This document shows positions 11,067 to 59,958 of a stretch of DNA of 64,000 nucleotides, in pieces; the first letter of the stretch is position 1, and each line of letters opens with the position of its first letter. This DNA comes from a virus: positions 188,878 to 252,877 of IMG/VR virus record IMGVR_UViG_3300025030_000039, one strand, 5' to 3'. The notes under the pieces are model-generated. The model saw only the letters and a program-made list of their open reading frames with translations, was not told the origin of the DNA and did not search any database. Made by a program: the position numbers and the translations under genes.

Positions 11067-11636
11067 TTATTTTATAATTTCATCTATAACTCCTAATCTA
11101 AGGGCTTGTTTACTATTCATAGTCCAATCAATTTTATGAGTGTAAATTTTCTTAAGTTGTTTTTTAGATATTTTAGTTTTTTCAAGAGTTATTTTCTCAA
11201 GAAGTTTTTGTAATCTTTTTGTTTCATAAAACTCTTCTTCCATATCTTTAGCTTTACCCCAGAAACCATTACTTATTTGATGATATAATGGTGTTGATAA
11301 TTCATAACCAAATCTCTTATGTCCATTTATTAATATCATAAATCCGCACGACATAGCACAACCTGTAACAATAGTATAAATAGGTGTTTTACTTGTATTC
11401 ATTATAGATAATAAACCAAAACATTGATATACCATTCCTCCATAAGAATCAATATAAATTTTAATTGGTTTACGTTTATATTTAACATAATCTATTGCAT
11501 ATACTTTGGTAAGACGATCGTCTTCTTCATTAATTTCAATTATTCTTTCAGTTAATTTACCTATTGATTCTTGATCAACTTGCTTATTAAAATACAAATT
11601 TCTACCTGTTGGAATTTCTAATTTATTTTCTGCCAT
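11067..11636 (-). CDS. clpP: ClpP-family serine protease (S14), possibly a phage prohead or ATP-dependent protease subunit
   Basis: IYIDSYGGMVYQCFGLLSIM...TIVTGCAMSCGFMIL holds the nucleophilic Ser. The His is in LYHQISNGFWGKA and the Asp in DWTMNSKQALRLGVIDEII. Order and spacing match the ClpP catalytic triad. Confidence 0.8.
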   Translation of the reverse strand: MAENKLEIPTGRNLYFNKQVDQESIGKLTERIIEINEEDDRLTKVYAIDYVKYKRKPIKIYIDSYGGMVYQCFGLLSIMNTSKTPIYTIVTGCAMSCGFMILINGHKRFGYELSTPLYHQISNGFWGKAKDMEEEFYETKRLQKLLEKITLEKTKISKKQLKKIYTHKIDWTMNSKQALRLGVIDEIIK

Positions 11637-18213: not shown

Positions 18214-18645
18214 TTAAATAAAATCATATTTCATAATTATCTTATTATCGATTTCTTTAACAACAGTCCATCCCATTTTTAAATGATATTCTTTTGCAAA
18301 AACTGTATCTAAAAATATAGTTTTATATCCTAATAATTTTGCATATTCAAATCTTTTTTCAGTTAACATCAATCCATATCCATTACCTCTATATTCTGGT
18401 TCAACCCATAACAATAAATTCCAGGGAGATATAGTCCTATCTATTTCATTAATAGTATCAAATAATCCACAACCTATAGGTTTATCATCTATTATCAATA
18501 CATAACAAACTGAATCAGATTCATTATTTAAATACCTTCTAATCTCACTTAAACTATATTCATCATCAACTTGCCAACGTTCTTTCATAATAGATGAAAC
18601 ATAATTAATATACATGTGAGTTAATTTTTCTATTTTAATTTCCAT
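18214..18645 (-). CDS. GNAT-family N-acetyltransferase
   Basis: VLIIDDKPIGCGLF and the WVEPEYRGNGYG (R/QxxGxG/A) acetyl-CoA-binding motif, followed by YAKLLGYKTIFLDT. Confidence 0.7.
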   Translation of the reverse strand: MEIKIEKLTHMYINYVSSIMKERWQVDDEYSLSEIRRYLNNESDSVCYVLIIDDKPIGCGLFDTINEIDRTISPWNLLLWVEPEYRGNGYGLMLTEKRFEYAKLLGYKTIFLDTVFAKEYHLKMGWTVVKEIDNKIIMKYDFI

Positions 18646-20066
18646 TCAAATTTATAATTGCCTGTTCCAAAACATCTATAATATCCCTTATCATGCATTA
18701 TCTCCACTTCAGTCATCAAGGAATCTGCTCCTTCTTTTACCAATTTATCTTTACGATATTTAAACCTATTCTCCCTAATTCCATCTACTACCCACCAATA
18801 ATTCAAACCAGTATGCACTATATATTCAAACCCTAATTTTGTATATAAATTATCTTGCTCATCAACCGTCCAATCACAATCTGCATAACTTACTACTCGT
18901 TCAGGTTTATACTCTTTAATAAAATATTTAAATAAACGACTGGCTCCACCAACAACCGAAGTATTTAATTTATTAGCAAACCGTAAAAGCTCCCATTCAT
19001 TTTCTTTAGCAACTTGATTTAAATTTTTACGTAAGGATCCGAAGGTCATTAATGATACTAACTCACCTTCATAATATAAACCTAATTTAATAGCAGCATT
19101 AGTATTGCCCTGTAAATGGTTCCTATTTAAAAATTCTCTACTATCACCAGAATTAACGGTTTTAATTACACATTTTCTAGCATACACTTTATCAGTAGAT
19201 AAATTTAATAAATTCTTTATTCTTGATTTTACTATATCTCTTTTGTTATACCAAACATCTTCCCATATATGTATTAAATTAATTCCCAATTCTTTGCATC
19301 TATTACTTTTATCTATATGATATTCTTTAGGTTTATTAAATTCATTATGCCAATATACTCCATTATGTTCAAATGCTATATTTTTATCTTCAATATAAAT
19401 ATCAAGTTCTCTATTTTTTAATTCTTTTTTAGAATTAATTCTAAATGGTTTTAAATAAATGTCTTTTATCCAATCTATTAATTCTATTTCAGAATTACTT
19501 TTTCCGTGATTAGGATTACATTTTAAACATGGATTAATATTTATATTTATTCTTCTATATAATAATTGAGAATCTATTATTGATATACTTTTACATTCAA
19601 CACATTCTATTTTTATTTTTTGTTGATCATCCCATTCTATTATTTTAATTTTATCTTTTAATTTTTCTTTAGCAAAAGGAAAATAATATTTATCTTTAAA
19701 ATAATTTGATTGTGTTATATGTTGTACTCCATATCTTTTTAGAACTGTTATTCTTGTTCTTTTTTCTTTTAAAACTATTGCACATTTTCTACTACAGCTA
19801 GAAGAATAACCAGGCATTATACCCATAAATTTAGATGAAGGTATTTTATTACCACATACTTCACATTTTGGAATTTCAGTTTTATCATGTAATGCATGAT
19901 AAAGTTTTTCTTTAAAAGACGTTAATTTTAGATTATTATTTATAGAATATTTTTCTATTTCTAATAATAGATTAGGATAATTATTTTTAAAAAATTCAAT
20001 TCTAGTAGTACTAGATGTAAGTTTTCCGTTTTTTATTAATATTTTATTTAAATCATTTGATAACAT
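18630..20066 (-). CDS. three-part fusion protein: N-terminal Cys clusters, DUF559/Vsr-like (PD-(D/E)XK-type) endonuclease core, C-terminal GNAT-like fold
   Basis: CEVCGNKIP...CSRKC Zn-ribbon-like clusters. ELDIYIEDKNIAFEHNGVYWHN....LGINLIHIWEDVW matches the DUF559 and very-short-patch-repair-like nuclease pattern. The C-terminal GLYYEGELVSLMTFGS...ELLRFA...VVGGASRLFKYFI...YTKLGF looks acyltransferase-like. Confidence 0.5.
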   Translation of the reverse strand: MLSNDLNKILIKNGKLTSSTTRIEFFKNNYPNLLLEIEKYSINNNLKLTSFKEKLYHALHDKTEIPKCEVCGNKIPSSKFMGIMPGYSSSCSRKCAIVLKEKRTRITVLKRYGVQHITQSNYFKDKYYFPFAKEKLKDKIKIIEWDDQQKIKIECVECKSISIIDSQLLYRRINININPCLKCNPNHGKSNSEIELIDWIKDIYLKPFRINSKKELKNRELDIYIEDKNIAFEHNGVYWHNEFNKPKEYHIDKSNRCKELGINLIHIWEDVWYNKRDIVKSRIKNLLNLSTDKVYARKCVIKTVNSGDSREFLNRNHLQGNTNAAIKLGLYYEGELVSLMTFGSLRKNLNQVAKENEWELLRFANKLNTSVVGGASRLFKYFIKEYKPERVVSYADCDWTVDEQDNLYTKLGFEYIVHTGLNYWWVVDGIRENRFKYRKDKLVKEGADSLMTEVEIMHDKGYYRCFGTGNYKFEWKLK

Positions 20067-20104: not shown

Positions 20105-20983
20105 TTAAACATAATCACCTTCCTGTATTTCAGGTAACTCTCCCATCTTATTTCTATACAATAATGTAATCATCGGTAAATTTACCCATCTTAAATCCTT
20201 CTCAACTAATTGATTTTTAATACGTTCAAGAATGTCCCTGTCACTTCCCCGAGGTTCGCTGCGTACTGGTGAAGTAAGAAATTGCTCTCTTACATTTCTA
20301 TATCTTAAATCCTTAAATTCCTTCAAATCCCAACAAAATGTTGAATGCCAACTTTCTGTTATATGAGAAATATTATTCCCCCCTATATGTTTAACAACTC
20401 CTCTTTCTGGTCTACAATATGTATCTGTTCCTGTTTTATATCTTTTTATTATAGCTGTCGAAGAAAAGAATTTTGCTTTAGGATATCTAGTTATTGCCTT
20501 AGCCATATATTCTAGATGGTTAGGAAGCCATATATCATCGTGATCTAAACGACAAATAAAATTTACACCATCCCTTACTGCTTTATCAATAGCTATATTT
20601 GCAGCAACATCAGACCCTGAATGCCAAAGATCTGCCCCCCTGAATCGGATCCTTTCACCTGGCAGTTCCAGATTTTCATATACGATTTTTGAGTATTCGA
20701 ATGATTCAACTAAAGGCTTGATTTCATTATCACTTTCATAGTCATCACCCATTAGATAAATTTTGTAGTTTTGGTATGATTGGTTTTTGATAGATTGAAG
20801 AGCTTCTTGTAATCTCATAGGAGTAGTACCATCGCTTCTTTTATAGGTAGCAACTATAATACCAAATCTTATATTTGTTCTGTGTTCTATTTTTTTGAAT
20901 TTATCTATTTTATCCGATAAATCATTTTGTTTATTTTGATCTTCTTGATTAAAATTTTGAAAATTTTCTAATAAGGTGTCCAT
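20105..20983 (-). CDS. family 2 glycosyltransferase (GT-A fold)
   Basis: FGIIVATYKR, the QSYQNYKIYLMGDDYE acidic motif and the DHDD DxD-type motif. Confidence 0.7.
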   Translation of the reverse strand: MDTLLENFQNFNQEDQNKQNDLSDKIDKFKKIEHRTNIRFGIIVATYKRSDGTTPMRLQEALQSIKNQSYQNYKIYLMGDDYESDNEIKPLVESFEYSKIVYENLELPGERIRFRGADLWHSGSDVAANIAIDKAVRDGVNFICRLDHDDIWLPNHLEYMAKAITRYPKAKFFSSTAIIKRYKTGTDTYCRPERGVVKHIGGNNISHITESWHSTFCWDLKEFKDLRYRNVREQFLTSPVRSEPRGSDRDILERIKNQLVEKDLRWVNLPMITLLYRNKMGELPEIQEGDYV

Positions 20984-22090: not shown

Positions 22091-22978
22091 ATGAAAACAA
22101 AAAGATTTGATAGTTCAGAAGGTAATGTTTGGAAATATGTATTTGACTTTGAAAATGCAGTTGCCGAAGCGGTACTTTACAAATATGAAAACTTTTACAA
22201 AAGGACTGTACTTTGCGTGAGTGTGCAAAGTGGATGCCCTGTTGGTTGCAAATTTTGCGGAACTGGCAAAAAGTTTATTAGAAACCTTACAAACTTAGAA
22301 ATAGTTGCACAGGTTAAACATTGCTTAAAAGACATGAATATTGAAAATGTTAATTCGGCTAGTGATCGTTTCCAAATAATGTTTATGAGTATGGGTGAAC
22401 CTACTTTAAATATTGATAATGTAATAACGGCAATAAAGGATTTAAACAACTTATATCCAAATGCTGAATTACTTATTTCAACTATGGGGGCAAAAAACAA
22501 TACCGCTTTTGAAAAACTGTTAAAAGTAAGTATTGAAATACAAAAGGTTGGTTTGCAATTTTCAGTACATGAAGCATTTGAAGAAAAAAGAAACCAATTA
22601 ATATCATTTAAAAATAAATTGAATTTACGTGAAATGCGTGATTTTGGCATTGAGTGGAATAGGCAAACAAAACGCCCTGTATATGTGAATTATTGCATTG
22701 GAGAAACAAACCAAAGCAATGAAGAGATGGATAGGCTTAAAGACTTATTTAGCCCTGCTCTTTTCAATTTTACATTTTCGGTTATTTGCTCTTCTGATGA
22801 AAACATGAAAGATAAAGGATATAGAGAACTGAACAAGATAAACACAATTACTTCATCATTTGTTGAATGTGGTTATAATGTTCGAGTTTTCGACCCTGCT
22901 GGTCAAGATGATATTGGGGGCGGGTGCGGACAATTATGGTATGTACAAAACTGGATGCGTGACCATCATTACCGCTAA
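22091..22978 (+). CDS. RlmN/Cfr-family radical SAM RNA methyltransferase-like protein
   Basis: SVQSGCPVGCKFCGTG is the CX3CX2C radical-SAM motif in an RlmN-like context. FMSMGEPTLN and the C-terminal DIGGGCGQLWY resemble the conserved RlmN/Cfr Cys motifs. Confidence 0.8.
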   Translation: MKTKRFDSSEGNVWKYVFDFENAVAEAVLYKYENFYKRTVLCVSVQSGCPVGCKFCGTGKKFIRNLTNLEIVAQVKHCLKDMNIENVNSASDRFQIMFMSMGEPTLNIDNVITAIKDLNNLYPNAELLISTMGAKNNTAFEKLLKVSIEIQKVGLQFSVHEAFEEKRNQLISFKNKLNLREMRDFGIEWNRQTKRPVYVNYCIGETNQSNEEMDRLKDLFSPALFNFTFSVICSSDENMKDKGYRELNKINTITSSFVECGYNVRVFDPAGQDDIGGGCGQLWYVQNWMRDHHYR

Positions 22979-23095: not shown

Positions 23096-23746
23096 ATGGA
23101 ATATAACGATAAAAATGGATTAGAATTAATAGCTGAATTAGCTAAAGTTAGTACTGATAAGCTAATGAATTTAACTATTTTAATACTAAGTAGTAATAAA
23201 TTGACTTCTATACCAAAAGAGATAGGATTACTTACTAATTTAAGAGAATTACGTTTATCCAATAATGAATTAACATCTGTACCAAAAGAGATAGGAAATT
23301 TGGTAAATTTACAACATTTACATTTAAATAGTAATAAATTAACTTCTATACCATTAGAAATATTTAATCTTATAAAATTAACTAAATTATTATTATATAG
23401 TAATAAATTGACTTCTATACCAAAAGAGATAGGAAATTTAATAAATTTACAGCGTTTATTTTTAAGTTATAATGCATTGACTTCATTACCTAAAGAGATA
23501 GGAAATTTGGTAAATTTATGTGAATTACTATATACAAATACTAAGATGGTTTCAATACCTATTGAGTTAGTTAAGTTAAATGTTTTTCCAAAGTTAGATT
23601 TATCAGAATTAACTCTGCCGTTATGGGCTGAATTATTTCAAGAAGATAAATTTAAAGTTATTAAGCATAAAGATTTTCCAAAAGATTTAAGAAATCATCC
23701 ATGGTTTATTGATGTAGCTTATGCAGATGATTTTGGACTTATTTAA
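23096..23746 (+). CDS. leucine-rich repeat protein (bacterial-type LRR)
   Basis: At least six tandem 23-aa repeats of the form L(T)SIPKEIGNLVNLQ.L.L..N. Confidence 0.8.
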   Translation: MEYNDKNGLELIAELAKVSTDKLMNLTILILSSNKLTSIPKEIGLLTNLRELRLSNNELTSVPKEIGNLVNLQHLHLNSNKLTSIPLEIFNLIKLTKLLLYSNKLTSIPKEIGNLINLQRLFLSYNALTSLPKEIGNLVNLCELLYTNTKMVSIPIELVKLNVFPKLDLSELTLPLWAELFQEDKFKVIKHKDFPKDLRNHPWFIDVAYADDFGLI

Positions 23747-24023: not shown

Positions 24024-24296
24024 ATGGAAAATATTGTTTTATTAACAGAAGAAAAAGAATTTTTATATTCAAAGATTGAGTATATTAAAAAGAAGAATTT
24101 ACAAAATAAAAATTTAGATATATACAATTTTCTTAAAAATGAAGAAGATGAGGTTGTATCTGAAGATTTATTTATAAAAATTCTTAATTGTTTAGAGTAT
24201 ACATTTAAGAAAAAGTTAAAAGGTTTAGACAAGCCTATAAAGAAAGAAGTATTTGAATCTTTATTAAATAAGGTTCCTAAAATATGGAAAGAATAA
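24024..24296 (+). CDS. hypothetical protein (90 aa)
   Basis: Track ORF. Preferred over the antisense 24011-24232. Confidence 0.4.
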   Translation: MENIVLLTEEKEFLYSKIEYIKKKNLQNKNLDIYNFLKNEEDEVVSEDLFIKILNCLEYTFKKKLKGLDKPIKKEVFESLLNKVPKIWKE

Positions 24297-25445
24297 TTAT
24301 TCTATATTTGGATAATTAAAAAGTTTATTTTGATAGTTTTTAAGAATAAGATTTCCATTTTCATCTTTACCTTGATAGTATTCAGGAAGAATAGGAATTT
24401 TACCTCCTCCACCTGGAGCATCAATTACAAAGGTAGGTATAGCATAGCCTGAAGTATTACCTCTAAGATTAAACATTATTTCTATTCCTTTTTCGATTGA
24501 GGTTCTAAAATGTTCTGAACCTAGAATTGGATCACATTGATATAAATAGTACGGTCTAACTCTAACTTTAAGTAATTCATGAAATAATTTTTTAAGAATT
24601 AATGAGTCATCATTAATTCCTTTAAGTAATACCGTTTGAGATCCTAATGGAATTCCAGCATTTGCTAATAAGTTGCAAGCTTGTTTTACTTCAGGAGTAA
24701 TTTCATCTGGATGAGTAAAATGTATACTCATAAAAAGAGGATGATATTTTTGTAGAATATTTATTAGTTTTTTGTTTATTCTTTGTGGAAGTATAACTGG
24801 AACTTTGGTTCCAATTCTTATTATTTCAATATGTTTGATATTTCTAATAGTTGATAATAAATAATCAAGTTGTGAATCAGGTAAAGTTAATGGATCACCG
24901 CCAGAAATTATTACATCTCTTATTTCAGTATGTTCTCGCAAATAATTAAAAGCAGATTCCCAATTATTTAAATTTTTTTCTTTTGCTACAATATGAGAAC
25001 GTGTACAATATCTACAATATGTTGCACAAAAATCTGTTGCTAAAAATAAAACTCTATCTGGATATCGATGTATAATATTAGGTACCGGATTATCTTCATT
25101 TTCATTTAATGGATCTGATAATTCACCCTCATTTATATAATATTCATTTACAATCGGAATAACGCTTTTTCTTAATGATTGCAATGAATTATTTTTATCT
25201 ATTAAGCTAGAATAATAAGGTGTTATTCTTATAGGTAATGAATCTTTATTATTATCATTTATAGATTTTTCATTATCATTTAAATTAAAAAAATCATTTA
25301 ATTGTTTAATGTTTGTAATACTATTTTTTATTTGCCATCGCCAGTCATTCCACTGTTCTTTTGATGTATTAGGAAAATTTTCTTTTAAATATTCTATTGA
25401 TTTTTCACTAGGTTCTATAAGTGAGATATCATCATTTTTGTCCAT
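24297..25445 (-). CDS. KamA-family radical SAM aminomutase-like protein (lysine 2,3-aminomutase / EpmB family)
   Basis: N-terminal WNDWRWQIKN, LATDFCATYCRYCTRS (CX3CX2C in the KamA context) and C-terminal GGGGK. Confidence 0.8.
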   Translation of the reverse strand: MDKNDDISLIEPSEKSIEYLKENFPNTSKEQWNDWRWQIKNSITNIKQLNDFFNLNDNEKSINDNNKDSLPIRITPYYSSLIDKNNSLQSLRKSVIPIVNEYYINEGELSDPLNENEDNPVPNIIHRYPDRVLFLATDFCATYCRYCTRSHIVAKEKNLNNWESAFNYLREHTEIRDVIISGGDPLTLPDSQLDYLLSTIRNIKHIEIIRIGTKVPVILPQRINKKLINILQKYHPLFMSIHFTHPDEITPEVKQACNLLANAGIPLGSQTVLLKGINDDSLILKKLFHELLKVRVRPYYLYQCDPILGSEHFRTSIEKGIEIMFNLRGNTSGYAIPTFVIDAPGGGGKIPILPEYYQGKDENGNLILKNYQNKLFNYPNIE

Positions 25446-25579
25446 TTTAATTTTATTTTAAACATTGTAAATTGTATTTTATTTATTCACTTTTTTAAAA
25501 TAATTTTATAGGATATGCATAAAATGTTTTAATTATAAAAAATGTTCGGGTGATATATAAAAAAAATAATGTTTAAGTT

Positions 25580-28145: not shown

Positions 28146-28742
28146 ATGTTAGCAATAGCTCCACCTAATAAAAAAGAGATTATAAACTATTCTAATTGGT
28201 TAGAAAAAAGAAAAATACCTTTTCATATACTTAATGAATATGATAATATAAATAGTTATTCTATGCTTATGTTATGTGGAGGTCCTGATATAGGAAAAAA
28301 TAAATTAAGAGATGAATTAGAAATAAAATGGTTTAATGATGCTTATAGAAAAATTCCTGTAATTGGAATTTGTAGAGGATTACAATTAGTTAATATTATT
28401 CTTAATGGTACTCTTTATGAAGATTTATCTGATGAATTAATAATGCATTCGACTGATAAAAATTCTATTTCTAATGAACCTTCTTCAAATTTAAATTCAA
28501 GTTTTCATAATATTATATACAATAATTTTAAAATTGAAGTTAATTCTAGACATCATCAGGGAATTAAAGTATTAGGTGAAGGATTAAAACCTTTAGCATA
28601 TAGTGAAGGAGATAATTTAATAGAAATGATTAAAGGATTTAAATCTTTATTTGTACAATGGCACCCTGAAAGAGAAGAAGTATATGAAATGCCAGCAGAA
28701 AGAATCGTATCATTGTGGATAGAAAAGTTTATGTTACTTTAA
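28146..28742 (+). CDS. class I glutamine amidotransferase-like protein, peptidase C26 / gamma-glutamyl hydrolase type
   Basis: MLMLCGGPD, the GICRGLQ catalytic Cys elbow, SRHHQG and VQWHPE His/Glu motifs. Confidence 0.7.
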   Translation: MLAIAPPNKKEIINYSNWLEKRKIPFHILNEYDNINSYSMLMLCGGPDIGKNKLRDELEIKWFNDAYRKIPVIGICRGLQLVNIILNGTLYEDLSDELIMHSTDKNSISNEPSSNLNSSFHNIIYNNFKIEVNSRHHQGIKVLGEGLKPLAYSEGDNLIEMIKGFKSLFVQWHPEREEVYEMPAERIVSLWIEKFMLL

Positions 28743-52851: not shown

Positions 52852-53685
52852 ATGGATTTAAGTTATGACCGCAGAATTTTACTAAATTATTCGAAAGAAA
52901 TAGAAAAAAGATTATTAACACAAGCAGAGGAAATTGAATGCTCATACATTATTCAAAATTCTCAACCTTGTGATCCAAGAAGAATTAGTGCTATTCAAAA
53001 ACTCGTAAAACATAATTTACGATATGGATTATCAGTTGCAAAACAATATCAGAATCAGGGACTCCCCTTACCTGATTTAATTAATGAAGCAAGTATTGGA
53101 TTAATCAAAGCAGCTGAACGATTTGATTATAGTACACATAAAACTAAATTTATAACATGTGCTGTTTCATGGATAAAACAATGCATCAAAGATGCACTAT
53201 GTGAACACGCAAGAACTGTAAGATTACCTAGACAGATTCATAATTATAAAAATGAATTTGAAAAACTTAAAAATAAACAAATAGCTGCAAATGGAGTTTA
53301 TGATATTGAAACAATTGCAGAAGAAATGATTGTACCAAAAAGAATAGTACATGATTTAGAAAAAATAACTCAATTTGGTGTATCATTAGATGAACCTGTA
53401 ATGGGAGAAGATGATGGACAAAGAACAAGATTAGATACTTATATTCCCGAATCTGAAAAAAATAATGATGAAAATGAAGATATCAAAAGAAAAATAAAAT
53501 ATGGATTGTCATTTTTAAAAGAAAGAGATCAAAATATTATGAAAGATGCATATGGTATAGATAGAGAATATGCATTAAGTATTGAAGATGTCGCAATAAA
53601 ACATGATTTAACTGAAGTAATGATTAGAAAAATAATGAGAGATTCATTAGATATGTTAAAATATCTTATTAATAAGAAAAAATAA
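52852..53685 (+). CDS. sigma-70 family RNA polymerase sigma factor
   Basis: Region 2 is unmistakable: LVKHNLRYGLSVAKQYQNQGLPLPDLINEASIGLIKAAERFDYSTHKTKFITCAVSWIKQCIKDAL...ARTVRLP. A region 4-like HTH (LSIEDVAIKHDLTEVMIRKIMRDSLDMLK) sits at the C-terminus. Confidence 0.85.
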   Translation: MDLSYDRRILLNYSKEIEKRLLTQAEEIECSYIIQNSQPCDPRRISAIQKLVKHNLRYGLSVAKQYQNQGLPLPDLINEASIGLIKAAERFDYSTHKTKFITCAVSWIKQCIKDALCEHARTVRLPRQIHNYKNEFEKLKNKQIAANGVYDIETIAEEMIVPKRIVHDLEKITQFGVSLDEPVMGEDDGQRTRLDTYIPESEKNNDENEDIKRKIKYGLSFLKERDQNIMKDAYGIDREYALSIEDVAIKHDLTEVMIRKIMRDSLDMLKYLINKKK

Positions 53686-55601: not shown

Positions 55602-56540
55602 ATGCCAAAGATATTAATGAATTTGGAACAAGCTTTAGATGTATTTAAACATATAATAGCAATAACTGGAGATCAAAATTTTCATTTAGCAGGATCAGCA
55701 AGAAGAGGTAAAAAAGAAAATTTAAAAGATTTAGATATAATCTATTTAGGAGATGAAATTCCTGATATAGAAAATGCTATTTATGTTGCAGATGGACCAT
55801 CATTAAAAAGAATTAAATTAAGATATGAATTTTCAAAAGGAATATTTGATTATGTTTCTATGGATATTCATATTGCGAATAAATTAAATTTCGGTTCTAC
55901 TCTTTTATATTTTACAGGTTCTCGGGAATTTAATATTAATATGAGAAAAAATGCTATGTCTAAAGGATGGAAACTCAATAGACATGGATTGTTTAATCAA
56001 AATAATGAATTAATAGCGGCTGAAAATGAAATAGATATTTTTTCAGCATTAGAAATTCCTTTTGTTAATCCTGTAGATAGAACAATATTTAAATCTGAAC
56101 AAGATGAAGAAAATCAAAAATTAATAAATACTATACGTCAATTAGCAATATTTCATGCTATTGAAGGTGATCATTATCGATCATCAGCATATTTTAAAGC
56201 ATCTTCATCATTACAAGAAATTGGTAATATCAAAAAATCAAAAGAAAATAACGAACTTATTTGTATAGATAATGTTGGAAATTCAATAGCAGCTAAAATC
56301 ATCGAATTTTTTGATACGGGTAAAATACATAAATTAGAAAAATTAAAAGAAACATATCCAGTTGATGTAGAAGGATTATTAAGTTTAGAAGGAGTTGGAT
56401 ACAAAAGCTTATTTAAATTTTATAAATTATTAGGAATAGAAACACTTGATGATTTAAAGAAAGCATGTAAAGAAAATAAAATAGCAAATCTTCAAGGATT
56501 TGGATTATCATCTCAAGAAAAAATATTAAATCAACTATGA
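55602..56540 (+). CDS. DNA polymerase X-like protein with apparently permuted domain order (palm and thumb first, then 8-kDa/HhH fingers)
   Basis: The N-terminal half has the Pol-beta motifs HLAGSARRGKKENLKDLDII (GS.RRG...D.D), LLYFTGSREFNINMRKNAMSKGWKLNRHGLF and ENEIDIFSALEIPFVNP. The C-terminal half holds IDNVGNSIAAKIIEFFDTGKIHKLEKL and LEGVGYKSLFKFYKLLGIETLDDL, helix-hairpin-helix motifs like the Pol-beta 8-kDa and fingers domains. Confidence 0.65.
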   Translation: MPKILMNLEQALDVFKHIIAITGDQNFHLAGSARRGKKENLKDLDIIYLGDEIPDIENAIYVADGPSLKRIKLRYEFSKGIFDYVSMDIHIANKLNFGSTLLYFTGSREFNINMRKNAMSKGWKLNRHGLFNQNNELIAAENEIDIFSALEIPFVNPVDRTIFKSEQDEENQKLINTIRQLAIFHAIEGDHYRSSAYFKASSSLQEIGNIKKSKENNELICIDNVGNSIAAKIIEFFDTGKIHKLEKLKETYPVDVEGLLSLEGVGYKSLFKFYKLLGIETLDDLKKACKENKIANLQGFGLSSQEKILNQL

Positions 56541-59181: not shown

Positions 59182-59958
59182 ATGCTAATAGATTTAACTT
59201 TAAAATGTAACGAACAATGTACTCATTGTATGGTAGATGCTCTTCCGACAGGTAAACATATGGAAGAAAAAACATTCATAGATTTATGTGGTTTCTTATT
59301 TATAATTAAACCTCCTATTGTTCAAATAAGCGGTGGTGAATTTACTCTTCATACTAATTTTTATGAGTATATTCAAAGATTAACTAATATGCTTCCAGAA
59401 AGTATGTTTTTACTTGAAAGCAATGGTTCATTTATAAATGATAAAGATAAAGTCAAAAAATTAAAAGATTTATTATCTATAAAAAATGTATATGGGCTTC
59501 AAATTAGAACTCATGAAAAATACTATCCAAACTTTGAAAATACAATGAAGAATCAAATGATTTTAAAATCATTACATCCTAAAGTTATGTTTTTCTCAGA
59601 TGGTATAGATGAGTTAGTTCCTATAGGAAGAGCAAAAACTAATTATCCAGATAACATAGCAACTAGAAGACCTCAGTGTTCAAATGTATTTTTATTAATT
59701 AAACAACCTGCTGCTAAAATAACTTCATTTAAAGAATTAATATTTACGTTACAAAGAAATGGAATATTCTGTAAACCTATGATTGATATCGAAGGAAATA
59801 TTAGAGCTGGTGAAACTCCATTTTGTCAAAAGTTTGGACATATTACCGATTCTTTAGATACTTTGTTCAATAATATTAAGAAAAGTGTACCGTGTGATGC
59901 TTGCGGATTAGTTAAAAATTACAAGCCTATAGAAAAATCTATTATATTCTCAGTTTAA
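59182..59958 (+). CDS. radical SAM protein (small, 4Fe-4S CX3CX2C plus SGGE motif), with extra C-terminal Cys residues
   Basis: LTLKCNEQCTHC is CX3CX2C. The QISGGEFTLH glycine-rich SAM-binding motif is typical of the activating-enzyme/QueE-like radical SAM subfamily. Five more Cys lie in the C-terminal third, ending in CDACG. Confidence 0.65.
   Translation: MLIDLTLKCNEQCTHCMVDALPTGKHMEEKTFIDLCGFLFIIKPPIVQISGGEFTLHTNFYEYIQRLTNMLPESMFLLESNGSFINDKDKVKKLKDLLSIKNVYGLQIRTHEKYYPNFENTMKNQMILKSLHPKVMFFSDGIDELVPIGRAKTNYPDNIATRRPQCSNVFLLIKQPAAKITSFKELIFTLQRNGIFCKPMIDIEGNIRAGETPFCQKFGHITDSLDTLFNNIKKSVPCDACGLVKNYKPIEKSIIFSV

What the first reader, a model, noticed from the sequence alone, without database searches (positions are those of the whole stretch)
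24297..25445. KamA-family (lysine 2,3-aminomutase-like) radical SAM enzyme in a phage
WNDWRWQ...FCATYCRYCTRS is the diagnostic KamA/EpmB context. Enzymes of this family isomerise alpha- to beta-amino acids (beta-lysine for EF-P modification or for N-epsilon-acetyl-beta-lysine). As far as I recall, KamA-like radical SAM isomerases have also been found in phage thymidine-hypermodification clusters. A GNAT acetyltransferase and an amidotransferase are nearby, so this may be the core of a small biosynthetic route.
Basis: partly seen in the sequence, partly recalled or inferred. Interest (0 to 1): 0.65.

Follow-up and report, generated by a model that had tools for sequence, protein, structure and literature searches.

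The report
Stand-alone lysine aminomutase in huge phage
A 462-kb phage carries an intact bacterial-type enzyme that should turn lysine into beta-lysine, copied without the partner genes it always has in bacteria; nothing ties it to DNA hypermodification, so it is best read as a borrowed metabolic gene whose purpose in the phage is still open.

Summary
The ORF is real: window 24297-25445, minus strand, 382 aa. It is a KamA-family radical SAM/PLP aminomutase: TIGR00238 scores 363 bits against a cutoff of 199, and the match to the solved lysine 2,3-aminomutase 2A5H has E=8e-121. The SAM-cluster cysteines, the carboxylate-binding Arg, both Asp that hold the lysine side chain, and the PLP lysine are all conserved. 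No specific equivalog cutoff (AblA, EpmB, Glu or Arg mutase) is reached.

The window belongs to LR756500.1, a 462-kb uncultured phage. The nearest relatives (62-66% identity) include named Bacteroidota proteins. They belong to a zinc-site-less clade that in bacteria heads a tight operon, KamA, then Ddl-like ATP-grasp (often two), then GNAT. The phage has only KamA, with phage-like codon composition, alone on its strand.

Relatives occur on 16 other viral contigs, many huge. No neighbouring gene is shared between viral lineages.

Searches of the whole genome found no amino-acid:DNA transferase, 5-hmdU kinase, 7-deazaguanine genes, EpmA or EF-P. A (d)CMP hydroxymethylase-like gene exists about 260 kb away. 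The known hypermodification isomerase (M6 gp53) resembles spore photoproduct lyase, not KamA.

Verdict: a new member of a known enzyme family, probably a host-derived auxiliary metabolic gene. The hypermodification reading is unsupported.

The parts
24297..25445 (-). KamA-family lysine 2,3-aminomutase gene (382 aa), complete ORF
   Evidence: an identical protein is called on LR756500.1 and on contigs from other samples
25005..25028 (-). CATYCRYC: radical SAM [4Fe-4S] cluster motif (Cys140, Cys144, Cys147). Arg149 (nt 24999-25001) follows and corresponds to the carboxylate-binding Arg134 of clostridial LAM
   Evidence: conserved in 17/17 viral and 80/80 bacterial clade members analysed
24399..24413 (-). 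GGGGK: glycine-rich loop with the PLP Schiff-base lysine (Lys349 = LAM Lys337)
24531..24533 (-). Asp305 (= LAM Asp293), binds the lysine epsilon-ammonium group (residue role from my own knowledge of 2A5H)
   Evidence: D in LAM, in EpmB and in all clade members
24420..24422 (-). Asp342 (= LAM Asp330), second epsilon-ammonium ligand
24606..24608 (-). Asp280 at the position of the LAM zinc ligand Cys268. The protein also ends (…YPNIE) before the C-terminal CxCxxC zinc motif of clostridial LAM. This is a trait of the clade, not a truncation
25332..25352 (-). WNDWRWQ N-terminal KamA signature. Only 31 residues precede it, against about 75 in named Bacteroidota homologues, which carry an acidic 'EEPPS' extension
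25446..25579 (.). 134-bp AT-rich divergent intergenic region upstream of KamA, the presumed promoter region. The sigma-70-like hexamers here are not above chance

Best explanation
The gene encodes a functional SAM-, [4Fe-4S]- and PLP-dependent lysine 2,3-aminomutase that converts free L-lysine to beta-lysine.

It was captured from a bacterial operon, most likely of Bacteroidota, in which KamA is the first gene, followed by Ddl-like ATP-grasp ligases (often two) and a GNAT acetyltransferase. That operon presumably builds an N-acyl/peptidyl beta-lysine compound.

The phage kept only the first, committing step. It expresses it as a single-gene unit and has held it long enough for the codon composition to become phage-like. 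The most likely role is an auxiliary metabolic gene: during infection of an anaerobic host it raises or redirects beta-lysine supply, and any further conversion is left to host enzymes.

Shown: family membership, conserved catalytic and substrate-binding residues, stand-alone organisation, recurrence in huge phages, the bacterial operon context, and the failure of these searches to find the tested partner genes.

Inferred: the substrate and product, and the physiological role. My confidence is about 0.85 for the enzyme chemistry and about 0.4 for the auxiliary-gene role.
For: Family and chemistry:
- TIGR00238 scores 362.9 bits (cutoff 199.2). AblA is the top equivalog at 455.8 bits.
- 2A5H matches at E=7.6e-121.
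- Cys140/144/147, Arg149, Asp305, Asp342 and Lys349 are conserved. EpmB, an active lysine aminomutase, also lacks the zinc cysteines.

Origin:
- The best 120 homologues are 60-66% identical; the few with source names are Bacteroidota/Bacteroidales, and all seven sequences read end at the same C-terminus.
- A crude NJ tree puts the window's copy next to a Bacteroidales sequence.

Bacterial context:
- A Ddl-like ATP-grasp is present in 70/80 loci.
- At least one lies within 3 kb downstream on the same strand in 55/59 loci that have enough downstream sequence.
- The GNAT is present in 52/80 loci.
- 14 of 15 Bacteroidota loci have the ligase gene(s), in most starting 3-15 bp after KamA.

Phage organisation:
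- KamA is the only minus-strand gene between plus-strand neighbours.
- KamA GC3 is 0.091, against a window gene median of 0.106 and 0.26-0.61 in the nearest bacterial genes.

Recurrence:
- 16 IMG/VR loci plus the 735-kb phage LR756501 carry the gene. All 17 analysed keep the catalytic residues, except a gap at Asp330 in the short L035 copy.
- KamA is the only gene family shared across viral lineages.

Operon partners in the phage:
- Profile HMMs built from the bacterial operon find no Ddl-type ligase or operon-type GNAT in the 462-kb genome above marginal scores.
- In the other viral loci they find none except L031, which has 66% GC.
Against: - No enzyme assay exists. Every equivalog cutoff is missed, so the substrate, product and stereochemistry are inferred.
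- The function of the bacterial operon is itself unknown; I found no literature on it.
- The host is not identified independently of KamA. Whether the host has the downstream enzymes is untested.
- A phage that makes beta-lysine with no consumer of its own is an incomplete story. An unrecognised phage consumer cannot be excluded: about 60% of ORFs have no family assignment, and only selected ORFs were scanned against Pfam.
- Some IMG/VR 'viral' loci may be bacterial (L021 has a sigma-54 activator next door; L031 has an ATP-grasp).
Confidence: 0.5

Rival explanations
1. DNA hypermodification: beta-lysine, or lysine rearranged on DNA, is attached to a modified base of the phage genome, so KamA is part of an anti-restriction DNA modification route.
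For: - The genome encodes a TS-fold enzyme that matches CMP/dCMP 5-hydroxymethylases better than thymidylate synthases: MilA 5JNH 6.6e-27, T4 gp42 1.9e-18, best true TS 3.6e-11. It has Asp where ThyA has Asn177. It sits in a same-strand run with kinase-like, nucleotidyltransferase and CofD-like genes.
- Distant KamA homologues (33-41% identity) in nt-1-like Vibrio phages and in P. putida vB_PpuM phages sit in 7-deazaguanine clusters beside the ArcS2 core domain, QueC and a GNAT. IMG/VR locus L035 has the same QueC adjacency.
Against: - The hydroxymethylase is about 260 kb from KamA.
- There is no clade-2 amino-acid:DNA transferase or 5-hmdU DNA kinase at profile level (best E 0.75 and 0.24).
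- There is no homologue of M6 gp51-54, QueC or ArcS2, nor of DpdA, FolE, QueD, QueE or Gat-QueC, while the dUTPase positive control was found.
- The known hypermodification isomerase resembles SPL, not KamA.
- The window's KamA is an orthologue of free-amino-acid enzymes with an intact lysine pocket.
- There are no conserved DNA-metabolism neighbours across viral lineages.
Confidence: 0.12
2. The phage makes N-epsilon-acetyl-beta-lysine by itself, AblA/AblB-style, using KamA and the nearby GNAT at 18214-18645.
For: - AblA is the best-scoring equivalog.
- A GNAT lies 6 kb away on the same strand.
- In Vibrio phage GR11A a GNAT lies directly downstream of KamA.
Against: - The GNAT is 143 aa and gives no AblB match.
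- It is unrelated to the operon GNAT beyond fold (E=0.004 with the operon HMM).
- It overlaps a homing endonuclease gene and is separated from KamA by seven called genes, most on the opposite strand.
- No GNAT accompanies KamA in the other viral loci.
Confidence: 0.1
3. Protein modification: beta-lysine is used to beta-lysylate EF-P or another translation or virion protein, as part of the phage's investment in translation.
For: - The genome has 25 tRNAs and a tmRNA.
- An RlmN/Cfr-like RNA methyl-synthase lies 1.3 kb from KamA.
- One R2K-clade ATP-grasp, a type I recall being predicted to ligate amino acids to proteins (own knowledge), is encoded at record 254,760-255,749.
Against: - No EpmA or EF-P homologue is in the genome.
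- EpmB scores far below its cutoff and below AblA (264 vs 456 bits).
- None of the 80 bacterial loci of this clade has efp or epmA nearby.
- The R2K ATP-grasp has no relative in any other sequenced phage, including KamA-positive LR756501.
Confidence: 0.07
4. It is an aminomutase for a different substrate (glutamate, arginine, or a lysine analogue or derivative), not free L-lysine.
For: All equivalog cutoffs are missed, and the Glu and Arg aminomutase models also score highly (426 and 374 bits). The clade is biochemically uncharacterised.
Against: - Both Asp residues that bind the lysine epsilon-ammonium group are invariant in the clade and shared with LAM; EpmB has Asp/Glu.
- From my own knowledge, glutamate 2,3-aminomutase replaces these two residues with Lys and Asn.
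- The AblA model scores best.
Confidence: 0.08
5. A decaying passenger gene with no function in the phage.
For: It lacks the N-terminal extension of its Bacteroidota relatives and all of its operon partners.
Against: - The ORF is intact and every catalytic residue is retained.
- Codon composition is fully phage-like.
- The same stand-alone gene persists in many viral lineages.
Confidence: 0.03

Closest known systems
Clostridium subterminale lysine 2,3-aminomutase KamA (PDB 2A5H)
   Same: Alignable over residues 22-378 at E=7.6e-121. Same CxxxCxxC motif, Arg134, Asp293, Asp330, PLP Lys337 and start of the LAM_C domain.
   Different: Lacks all four zinc ligands (Cys268 becomes Asp; the C-terminal CxCxxC is absent) and the last ~45 residues. 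It is not in a lysine-fermentation operon.
AblA (TIGR03820), the lysine 2,3-aminomutase of the N-epsilon-acetyl-beta-lysine osmolyte pathway
   Same: Best-scoring equivalog model (455.8 bits).
   Different: Below the 525.4-bit cutoff. No AblB-type acetyltransferase is adjacent.
Uncharacterised bacterial clade: the KamA, Ddl-like ATP-grasp, GNAT operon (Bacteroidota, Desulfobacterota, Spirochaetota and others)
   Same: 62-66% identity, same C-terminal end, same lack of a zinc site. The window's protein nests among the Bacteroidota members.
   Different: The phage copy has none of the operon partners and lacks the ~45-residue acidic N-terminal extension.
EpmB (YjeK), the EF-P beta-lysylation aminomutase
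   Same: Same family. It also lacks the zinc cysteines and is still an active lysine aminomutase (activity from my own knowledge).
   Different: Scores 264 bits against a cutoff of 369. No EpmA or EF-P partner is in the phage.
Phage M6 gp53, the radical SAM N-alpha-glycinylthymine isomerase of thymidine hypermodification
   Same: A radical SAM enzyme in a phage that performs an amino-group rearrangement.
   Different: A different radical SAM family (like spore photoproduct lyase; it acts on DNA-bound glycine). No detectable homology, and none of its pathway partners are in this genome.
KamA homologues of nt-1-like Vibrio phages (GR11A, GR7B) and P. putida vB_PpuM phages
   Same: KamA-family genes in cultured large phages, with catalytic residues conserved.
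   Different: Only 33-41% identical. They are embedded in a conserved ArcS2-QueC-...-KamA-GNAT block beside topoisomerase II, and none of that block is present here.

Membership tests
KamA family radical SAM proteins (TIGR00238) | Whole-protein HMM score above the curated cutoff | tested here: met
   362.9 bits against a cutoff of 199.2
KamA family radical SAM proteins (TIGR00238) | CxxxCxxC [4Fe-4S]/SAM motif and PLP-binding lysine in a GGGGK loop | tested here: met
   Cys140/144/147 and Lys349 align with LAM Cys125/129/132 and Lys337
KamA family radical SAM proteins (TIGR00238) | Aminomutase activity in vitro | not testable with these tools
   needs anaerobic enzymology
Lysine-specific 2,3-aminomutases (LAM/AblA/EpmB) | Two acidic residues that bind the lysine epsilon-ammonium group (LAM Asp293, Asp330) and the carboxylate-binding Arg134 | tested here: met
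   Asp305, Asp342 and Arg149. These are invariant in 80/80 bacterial copies and in all 17 viral copies analysed, except a gap at Asp330 in the short L035 copy. The residue roles are from my own knowledge of 2A5H.
AblA equivalog (TIGR03820) | Score at or above 525.4 bits, and an adjacent AblB beta-lysine acetyltransferase | tested here: not met
   455.8 bits. The nearby GNAT gives no AblB match.
Clostridial-type LAM (2A5H) | Inter-subunit zinc site (Cys268 + Cys375/377/380) | tested here: not met
   Asp280 at the Cys268 position. The protein ends before the CxCxxC motif, and the downstream DNA encodes a convergent ORF, not a remnant.
EpmB / EF-P beta-lysylation system | TIGR03821 score at or above 369.3 bits; EpmA ligase and EF-P target in the genome or neighbourhood | tested here: not met
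   264.2 bits. No EpmA or EF-P hit in 975 ORFs (single-sequence phmmer). Neither probe hit any of the 80 bacterial clade loci.
Glutamate / arginine 2,3-aminomutases | Equivalog cutoffs of 650 and 600 bits | tested here: not met
   426.4 and 374.3 bits
Thymidine hypermodification pathway (Lee et al., PMC8989533) | Amino-acid:DNA transferase (aGPT-Pplase, PF18724) | tested here: not met
   An HMM built from 120 homologues of M6 gp51, with filters off, has best E=0.75. Clades 1 and 3 were not tested.
Thymidine hypermodification pathway (Lee et al., PMC8989533) | 5-hmdU DNA kinase (PF18748) | tested here: not met
   An HMM built from 120 homologues of M6 gp54 has best E=0.24
Thymidine hypermodification pathway (Lee et al., PMC8989533) | Pyrimidine hydroxymethylase that supplies 5-hmdU | tested here: inconclusive
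   One TS-fold gene exists (record 151,597-152,478), but it resembles CMP/dCMP hydroxymethylases and not dUMP hydroxymethylases. It is about 260 kb from KamA.
Thymidine hypermodification pathway (Lee et al., PMC8989533) | Radical SAM isomerase homologous to M6 gp53 | tested here: not met
   gp53 finds no ORF in the genome. The paper describes gp53 as resembling SPL.
7-deazaguanine DNA modification (Dpd/Que) | DpdA transglycosylase and preQ0 synthesis genes (FolE, QueD, QueE, QueC), or ArcS2 | tested here: not met
   No hit better than E=0.09 with phage 9g references, while the dUTPase control was found. No hit with the GR11A QueC proteins or DUF5591 protein. These are single-sequence searches only.
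Bacterial KamA-ATP-grasp-GNAT operon clade | Sequence clustering with the clade (C-terminal end, no zinc cysteines) | tested here: met
Bacterial KamA-ATP-grasp-GNAT operon clade | Ddl-like ATP-grasp ligase(s) and a GNAT immediately downstream | tested here: not met
   A convergent 90-aa ORF abuts the KamA stop codon. The operon HMMs find only a distant R2K-type ATP-grasp 158 kb away (E=2.5e-5) and marginal GNAT scores.

The most novel reading that the evidence does not exclude
Huge phages repeatedly capture a lone lysine 2,3-aminomutase because beta-lysine is a building block for a virus-specific product that is not yet recognised. Examples would be a lysine-derived decoration of modified DNA bases, or a beta-lysyl modification of virion or translation proteins. 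This phage has a (d)CMP hydroxymethylase module, and other large phages place KamA inside 7-deazaguanine/ArcS2 clusters. The consumer would be one of the many unannotated phage proteins.
Probability: 0.12. Interest if true: 0.8.

Novelty: new member of a known kind. Interest (0 to 1): 0.4.

Why it matters
If the enzyme is active, beta-lysine formation joins the list of host pathways that very large phages tamper with. It is also an oxygen-sensitive radical SAM/PLP enzyme, an unusual thing for a virus to carry.

The recurrence of the gene alone, in several huge-phage lineages, suggests selection for this single step. The comparison also exposes two things worth experimental follow-up:
- a widespread, apparently undescribed bacterial operon (KamA, Ddl-like ligases, GNAT, sometimes a deacetylase-like fusion);
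- an undescribed KamA-GNAT pair inside the archaeosine-type DNA modification clusters of cultured Vibrio and Pseudomonas phages. Those phages are culturable, so the role of a phage KamA could actually be tested there.

For annotation, the result warns against reading any phage radical SAM 'isomerase' as a DNA hypermodification enzyme.

Tried and rejected
1. C-terminal truncation or frameshift of KamA. Rejected: the bacterial homologues end at the same place, and the downstream DNA encodes a convergent ORF.
2. A 'Mom-like' DNA modification enzyme at 18630-20066 (weak Pfam hit). Rejected: it is a homing endonuclease (phrog_3339, E=4e-105).
3. Conserved synteny around KamA between LR756500 and the 735-kb LR756501. 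None found.
4. A conserved partner across 18 viral loci, by blastp clustering and phmmer. None found. Pfam on the immediate neighbours in six lineages gave unrelated or no families.
5. Whole-genome Pfam scan.
6. Co-occurrence of the R2K ATP-grasp with KamA. Rejected: the ATP-grasp has no relative in any other sequenced phage.
7. Literature on a KamA + ATP-grasp operon, KamA in phages, or KamA in huge phages. Nothing relevant. The huge-phage paper mentions neither radical SAM nor lysine.
8. Confirming LAM residue roles from the primary paper. The paper is not held, so these roles are marked as my own knowledge.
9. Sigma-70 promoter and terminator scan around KamA. No signal above chance in this AT-rich DNA.
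10. Alternative stop-codon reassignment. The standard code already gives 92% ORF coverage.
Full report
**Observation.** It contains WNDWRWQ (residues 32-38) and DFCATYCRYCTRS. Pfam finds LAM_C (4.8e-16) and Radical_SAM (2.5e-13). The NCBIfam KamA subfamily model TIGR00238 scores 362.9 bits against a cutoff of 199.2. The only solved structure matched is Clostridium subterminale lysine 2,3-aminomutase 2A5H, at E=7.6e-121 over residues 22-378.

The window is part of LR756500.1, an unannotated 462,018-bp 'uncultured phage' genome with 24% GC. It starts at about record position 388,074 and differs from the record only by a 124-bp indel near window 55,486. So 'a KamA-family enzyme in a phage' is confirmed.

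**Which KamA.** None of the specific equivalog models reaches its cutoff:
- AblA: 455.8 bits against 525.4
- glutamate 2,3-aminomutase: 426.4 against 650
- arginine 2,3-aminomutase: 374.3 against 600
- EpmB: 264.2 against 369.3

In an alignment with LAM, EpmB, 17 viral and 80 bacterial relatives, the phage protein has the three cluster cysteines (Cys140/144/147). It also has the Arg corresponding to LAM Arg134 (Arg149), both Asp corresponding to LAM Asp293 and Asp330 (Asp305, Asp342), and the PLP lysine (Lys349). The roles of these residues (carboxylate binding, epsilon-ammonium binding, Schiff base) come from my own knowledge of the 2A5H structure; I could not retrieve the primary paper.

The protein lacks all four zinc ligands of clostridial LAM. 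Cys268 is Asp280, and the chain ends at …YPNIE, before the CxCxxC motif. This is not a truncation. All seven bacterial homologues whose sequences I read end at the same place, almost none of the 80 bacterial clade members has a Cys at these positions, and the DNA downstream encodes a convergent ORF. E. coli EpmB also lacks these cysteines and is, from my own knowledge, an active lysine aminomutase. The missing zinc site therefore does not argue against activity. The best reading is a lysine 2,3-aminomutase that makes beta-lysine, with unknown stereochemistry.

**Origin.** The 120 best database homologues are 60-66% identical proteins, mostly ~423 aa, and the few that carry a source name are Bacteroidota/Bacteroidales. 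Compared with them the phage protein lacks a ~45-residue acidic N-terminal extension.

In 80 loci from species-representative genomes, the top ones are Prolixibacteraceae and Bacteroidales, followed by Desulfobacterota, Spirochaetota, Alphaproteobacteria and Planctomycetota. In these loci this KamA clade heads a conserved operon:
- A Ddl-like ATP-grasp ligase occurs in 70/80 loci.
- In 55 of the 59 loci with at least 2.5 kb of downstream sequence, at least one ligase lies within 3 kb on the same strand. 34 of them have two.
- A ~165-aa GNAT occurs in 52/80 loci.
- In 13 loci a ~750-aa protein follows. It matches the GNAT probe at both ends and carries between them a motif I recognise by eye as HDAC/acetylpolyamine-amidohydrolase-like.
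- Among 15 Bacteroidota-labelled loci with enough downstream sequence, 14 have the ligase gene(s), in most starting within about 15 bp of the KamA stop.
- No EF-P or EpmA gene lies near any of the 80 loci.

I found no literature on this operon. By its composition it should make an N-acyl/peptidyl beta-lysine compound.

**The phage copy stands alone.** KamA is the only minus-strand gene between plus-strand neighbours. A 90-aa ORF ends at 24296, abutting the KamA stop, and a 483-aa ORF of unknown function starts 134 bp upstream in the divergent direction. KamA's GC (0.262) and GC3 (0.091) match the phage's genes (median GC3 0.106). The nearest bacterial genes have GC3 of 0.26-0.61, so the gene has long been resident in the phage lineage. 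KamA matches no PHROG family.

The surrounding genes are a mixed bag:
- homing endonuclease, 18630-20066 (phrog_3339, 4e-105), whose weak 'Mom' Pfam hit is spurious
- GNAT, 18214-18645
- GT2, 20105-20983
- RlmN/Cfr-like radical SAM enzyme, 22091-22978
- LRR protein, 23096-23746
- class-I amidotransferase/peptidase C26, 28146-28742
- UPF0114 membrane protein

**Recurrence in viruses.** A scan of IMG/VR returned 16 loci with KamA relatives at 37-63% identity, many on contigs of 130-467 kb. The 735-kb phage LR756501 has one at 52%. The 17 viral copies analysed in the alignment (all but L031) keep the catalytic residues, apart from a gap at the Asp330 position in the short L035 copy.

Clustering all ORFs within +-10 kb of KamA in 18 viral loci shows that KamA is the only family shared between lineages. 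Synteny exists only inside two groups of closely related contigs. None of the window's 34 other ORFs in that range has a homologue in the other 17 loci. Pfam on the immediate neighbours in six lineages gave SMC-like, polynucleotide kinase, a sigma-54 activator (probably a bacterial contig) or nothing.

In a crude NJ tree without bootstrap, the viral sequences form at least three separate clades plus singletons, interleaved with bacterial ones. The window's copy is sister to a Bacteroidales (Acetofilamentum) sequence. Most viral lineages are as similar to bacterial sequences as to other viral lineages. This fits repeated capture, but it does not prove it.

The operon partners are absent from the viral loci, with two exceptions: L031 (66% GC, probably bacterial) has the ATP-grasp, and L035 has QueC-like neighbours.

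The paper that reconstituted thymidine hypermodification describes the M6 isomerase gp53 as a relative of spore photoproduct lyase. It never mentions KamA or an aminomutase (PMC8989533).

I fetched the whole 462-kb genome, called 975 ORFs of at least 50 aa and searched them:
- M6 gp51-54, E. coli EpmA and EF-P, the bacterial ATP-grasp and GNAT proteins, and all members of the Vibrio/Pseudomonas phage KamA blocks find nothing apart from KamA, a ligase, two minor matches and one TS-fold ORF.
- Profile HMMs built from 120 homologues each of the amino-acid:DNA transferase (PF18724) and the 5-hmdU DNA kinase (PF18748), run with filters off, give best E-values of 0.75 and 0.24.
- Phage 9g DpdA, FolE, QueD, Gat-QueC and QueE give nothing better than E=0.09, while its dUTPase, used as a positive control, is found.

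The TS-fold ORF (record 151,597-152,478) is best matched by CMP 5-hydroxymethylase MilA (6.6e-27) and T4 dCMP hydroxymethylase (1.9e-18). Thymidylate synthases match much less well (3.6e-11 or worse). It has Asp at the position of ThyA Asn177. The phage therefore probably makes a 5-hydroxymethyl-cytosine nucleotide. But this gene is about 260 kb from KamA, and similar genes occur in about 985 phage records.

**Other candidate consumers.** HMMs built from the bacterial operon itself find one weak ATP-grasp hit (record 254,760-255,749; E=2.5e-5). Pfam assigns it to the R2K clade (PF18299). It has no relative in any other sequenced phage, including KamA-positive LR756501, so there is no co-occurrence. 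The window GNAT scores only E=0.004 against the operon GNAT model.

**Interpretation.** The evidence best supports a host-derived, stand-alone lysine 2,3-aminomutase, kept as an auxiliary metabolic gene, that supplies beta-lysine and leaves later steps to the host. The enzyme chemistry is well supported by homology and residue conservation. The physiological role is inferred from the gene's origin and organisation. The huge-phage paper predicts Bacteroidetes hosts for the largest (Mahaphage) genomes, including the 735-kb one that also carries KamA (PMC7162821). That agrees with the phylogenetic neighbourhood of the gene.

The rivals cannot be excluded without experiments, but each lacks its defining partners. 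They are a DNA modification role, a phage-autonomous acetyl-beta-lysine route, protein beta-lysylation, and a different substrate.

**Limits.**
- Several partner searches used single sequences or narrow HMMs.
- aGPT-Pplase clades 1 and 3 were not tested.
- Only selected ORFs were scanned against Pfam.
- The tree is unbootstrapped.
- Some IMG/VR loci may be bacterial.
- The host is not independently established.

Noticed in passing
LR756500.1 record 151,101-158,878 (L009:1101-8878), outside the window: A same-strand run of genes: a (d)CMP 5-hydroxymethylase-like TS-fold enzyme, a weak thymidylate-kinase-like ORF, a MobA-like nucleotidyltransferase, a 612-aa CofD-like + phosphomannomutase-like protein, and a guanylate-kinase-like protein. 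SIR2 and ExoX-like genes lie nearby. This may be an hmC-based DNA modification module with an unusual phospho-transfer decoration step.
   Followed up: partly
window 22091-22978 (+): An RlmN/Cfr-like radical SAM methyl-synthase (295 aa) that lacks the N-terminal domain of RlmN. It is below all equivalog cutoffs and matches phrog_24834 (unknown function). By eye, the cluster cysteines and both catalytic cysteines appear to be present.
   Followed up: partly
window 59182-59958 (+): A third radical SAM protein within 40 kb (258 aa). It gives only generic matches (YydG/HxsC/ArsS-like N-terminal half).
   Followed up: partly
window 18630-20066 (-): A large homing endonuclease (phrog_3339, E=4e-105) whose 3' end overlaps the start of the GNAT gene. 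Its weak Pfam 'Mom' and REase_MTES_1575 hits could mislead annotation.
   Followed up: yes
LR756500.1 record about 61,400-118,800 (L007, L008): 25 tRNA genes plus a tmRNA (tag GNNAEMRMAA). One tRNA has anticodon CUA (called 'Pyl' by ARAGORN) at L008:10652-10720, which makes it a candidate amber suppressor. The standard code nevertheless already gives 92% ORF coverage.
   Followed up: partly
LR756500.1 record 248,783-260,530 (L010:48783 to L011:10530): Ribonucleotide reductase and family-B DNA polymerase genes are split and show intein-splicing domain hits. An R2K-clade ATP-grasp (PF18299; record 254,760-255,749) lies beside them and has no relative in any other sequenced phage.
   Followed up: partly
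window about 55,486, just upstream of ORF 55602-56540 (+): The window lacks 124 bp that are present in GenBank LR756500.1. The site is immediately upstream of a PolX-like (DNA polymerase beta thumb + HhH) ORF, so the two assemblies may differ in that gene's N-terminus.
   Followed up: no
L004 (Vibrio phage vB_VcorM_GR11A, MT366761.1 40,867-59,853); L005 (Pseudomonas phage vB_PpuM-Amme-1); L035:9980-12193: Cultured large phages carry a distant KamA (33-41% identity). In GR11A the block reads ArcS2-core (DUF5591), QueC, QueC-like, three unknowns, KamA, GNAT, beside topoisomerase II. The Pseudomonas phage has a similar layout (QueC-like, unannotated genes, KamA, topoisomerase II). The 7-deazaguanine literature does not mention KamA or lysine for these phages. 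Archaeal ArcS uses lysine as its amine donor (my own knowledge), so a link between KamA and archaeosine-type DNA modification is testable here.
   Followed up: partly
L001, L003, L037-L116 (bacterial loci): A widespread and apparently undescribed bacterial operon: zinc-site-less KamA, then one or two Ddl-like ATP-grasp ligases, then a GNAT. In 13 loci a ~750-aa protein follows, with GNAT matches at both ends and an HDAC-like motif between them. It is found across Bacteroidota, Desulfobacterota, Spirochaetota, Alphaproteobacteria and Planctomycetota.
   Followed up: partly
window 11067-11636 (-), 52852-53685 (+), 28146-28742 (+): A ClpP-like protease, a sigma-70-family factor and a peptidase C26/class-I amidotransferase (phrog_7218, 'moron/AMG' category). 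These are further host-like accessory genes in the same region.
   Followed up: no
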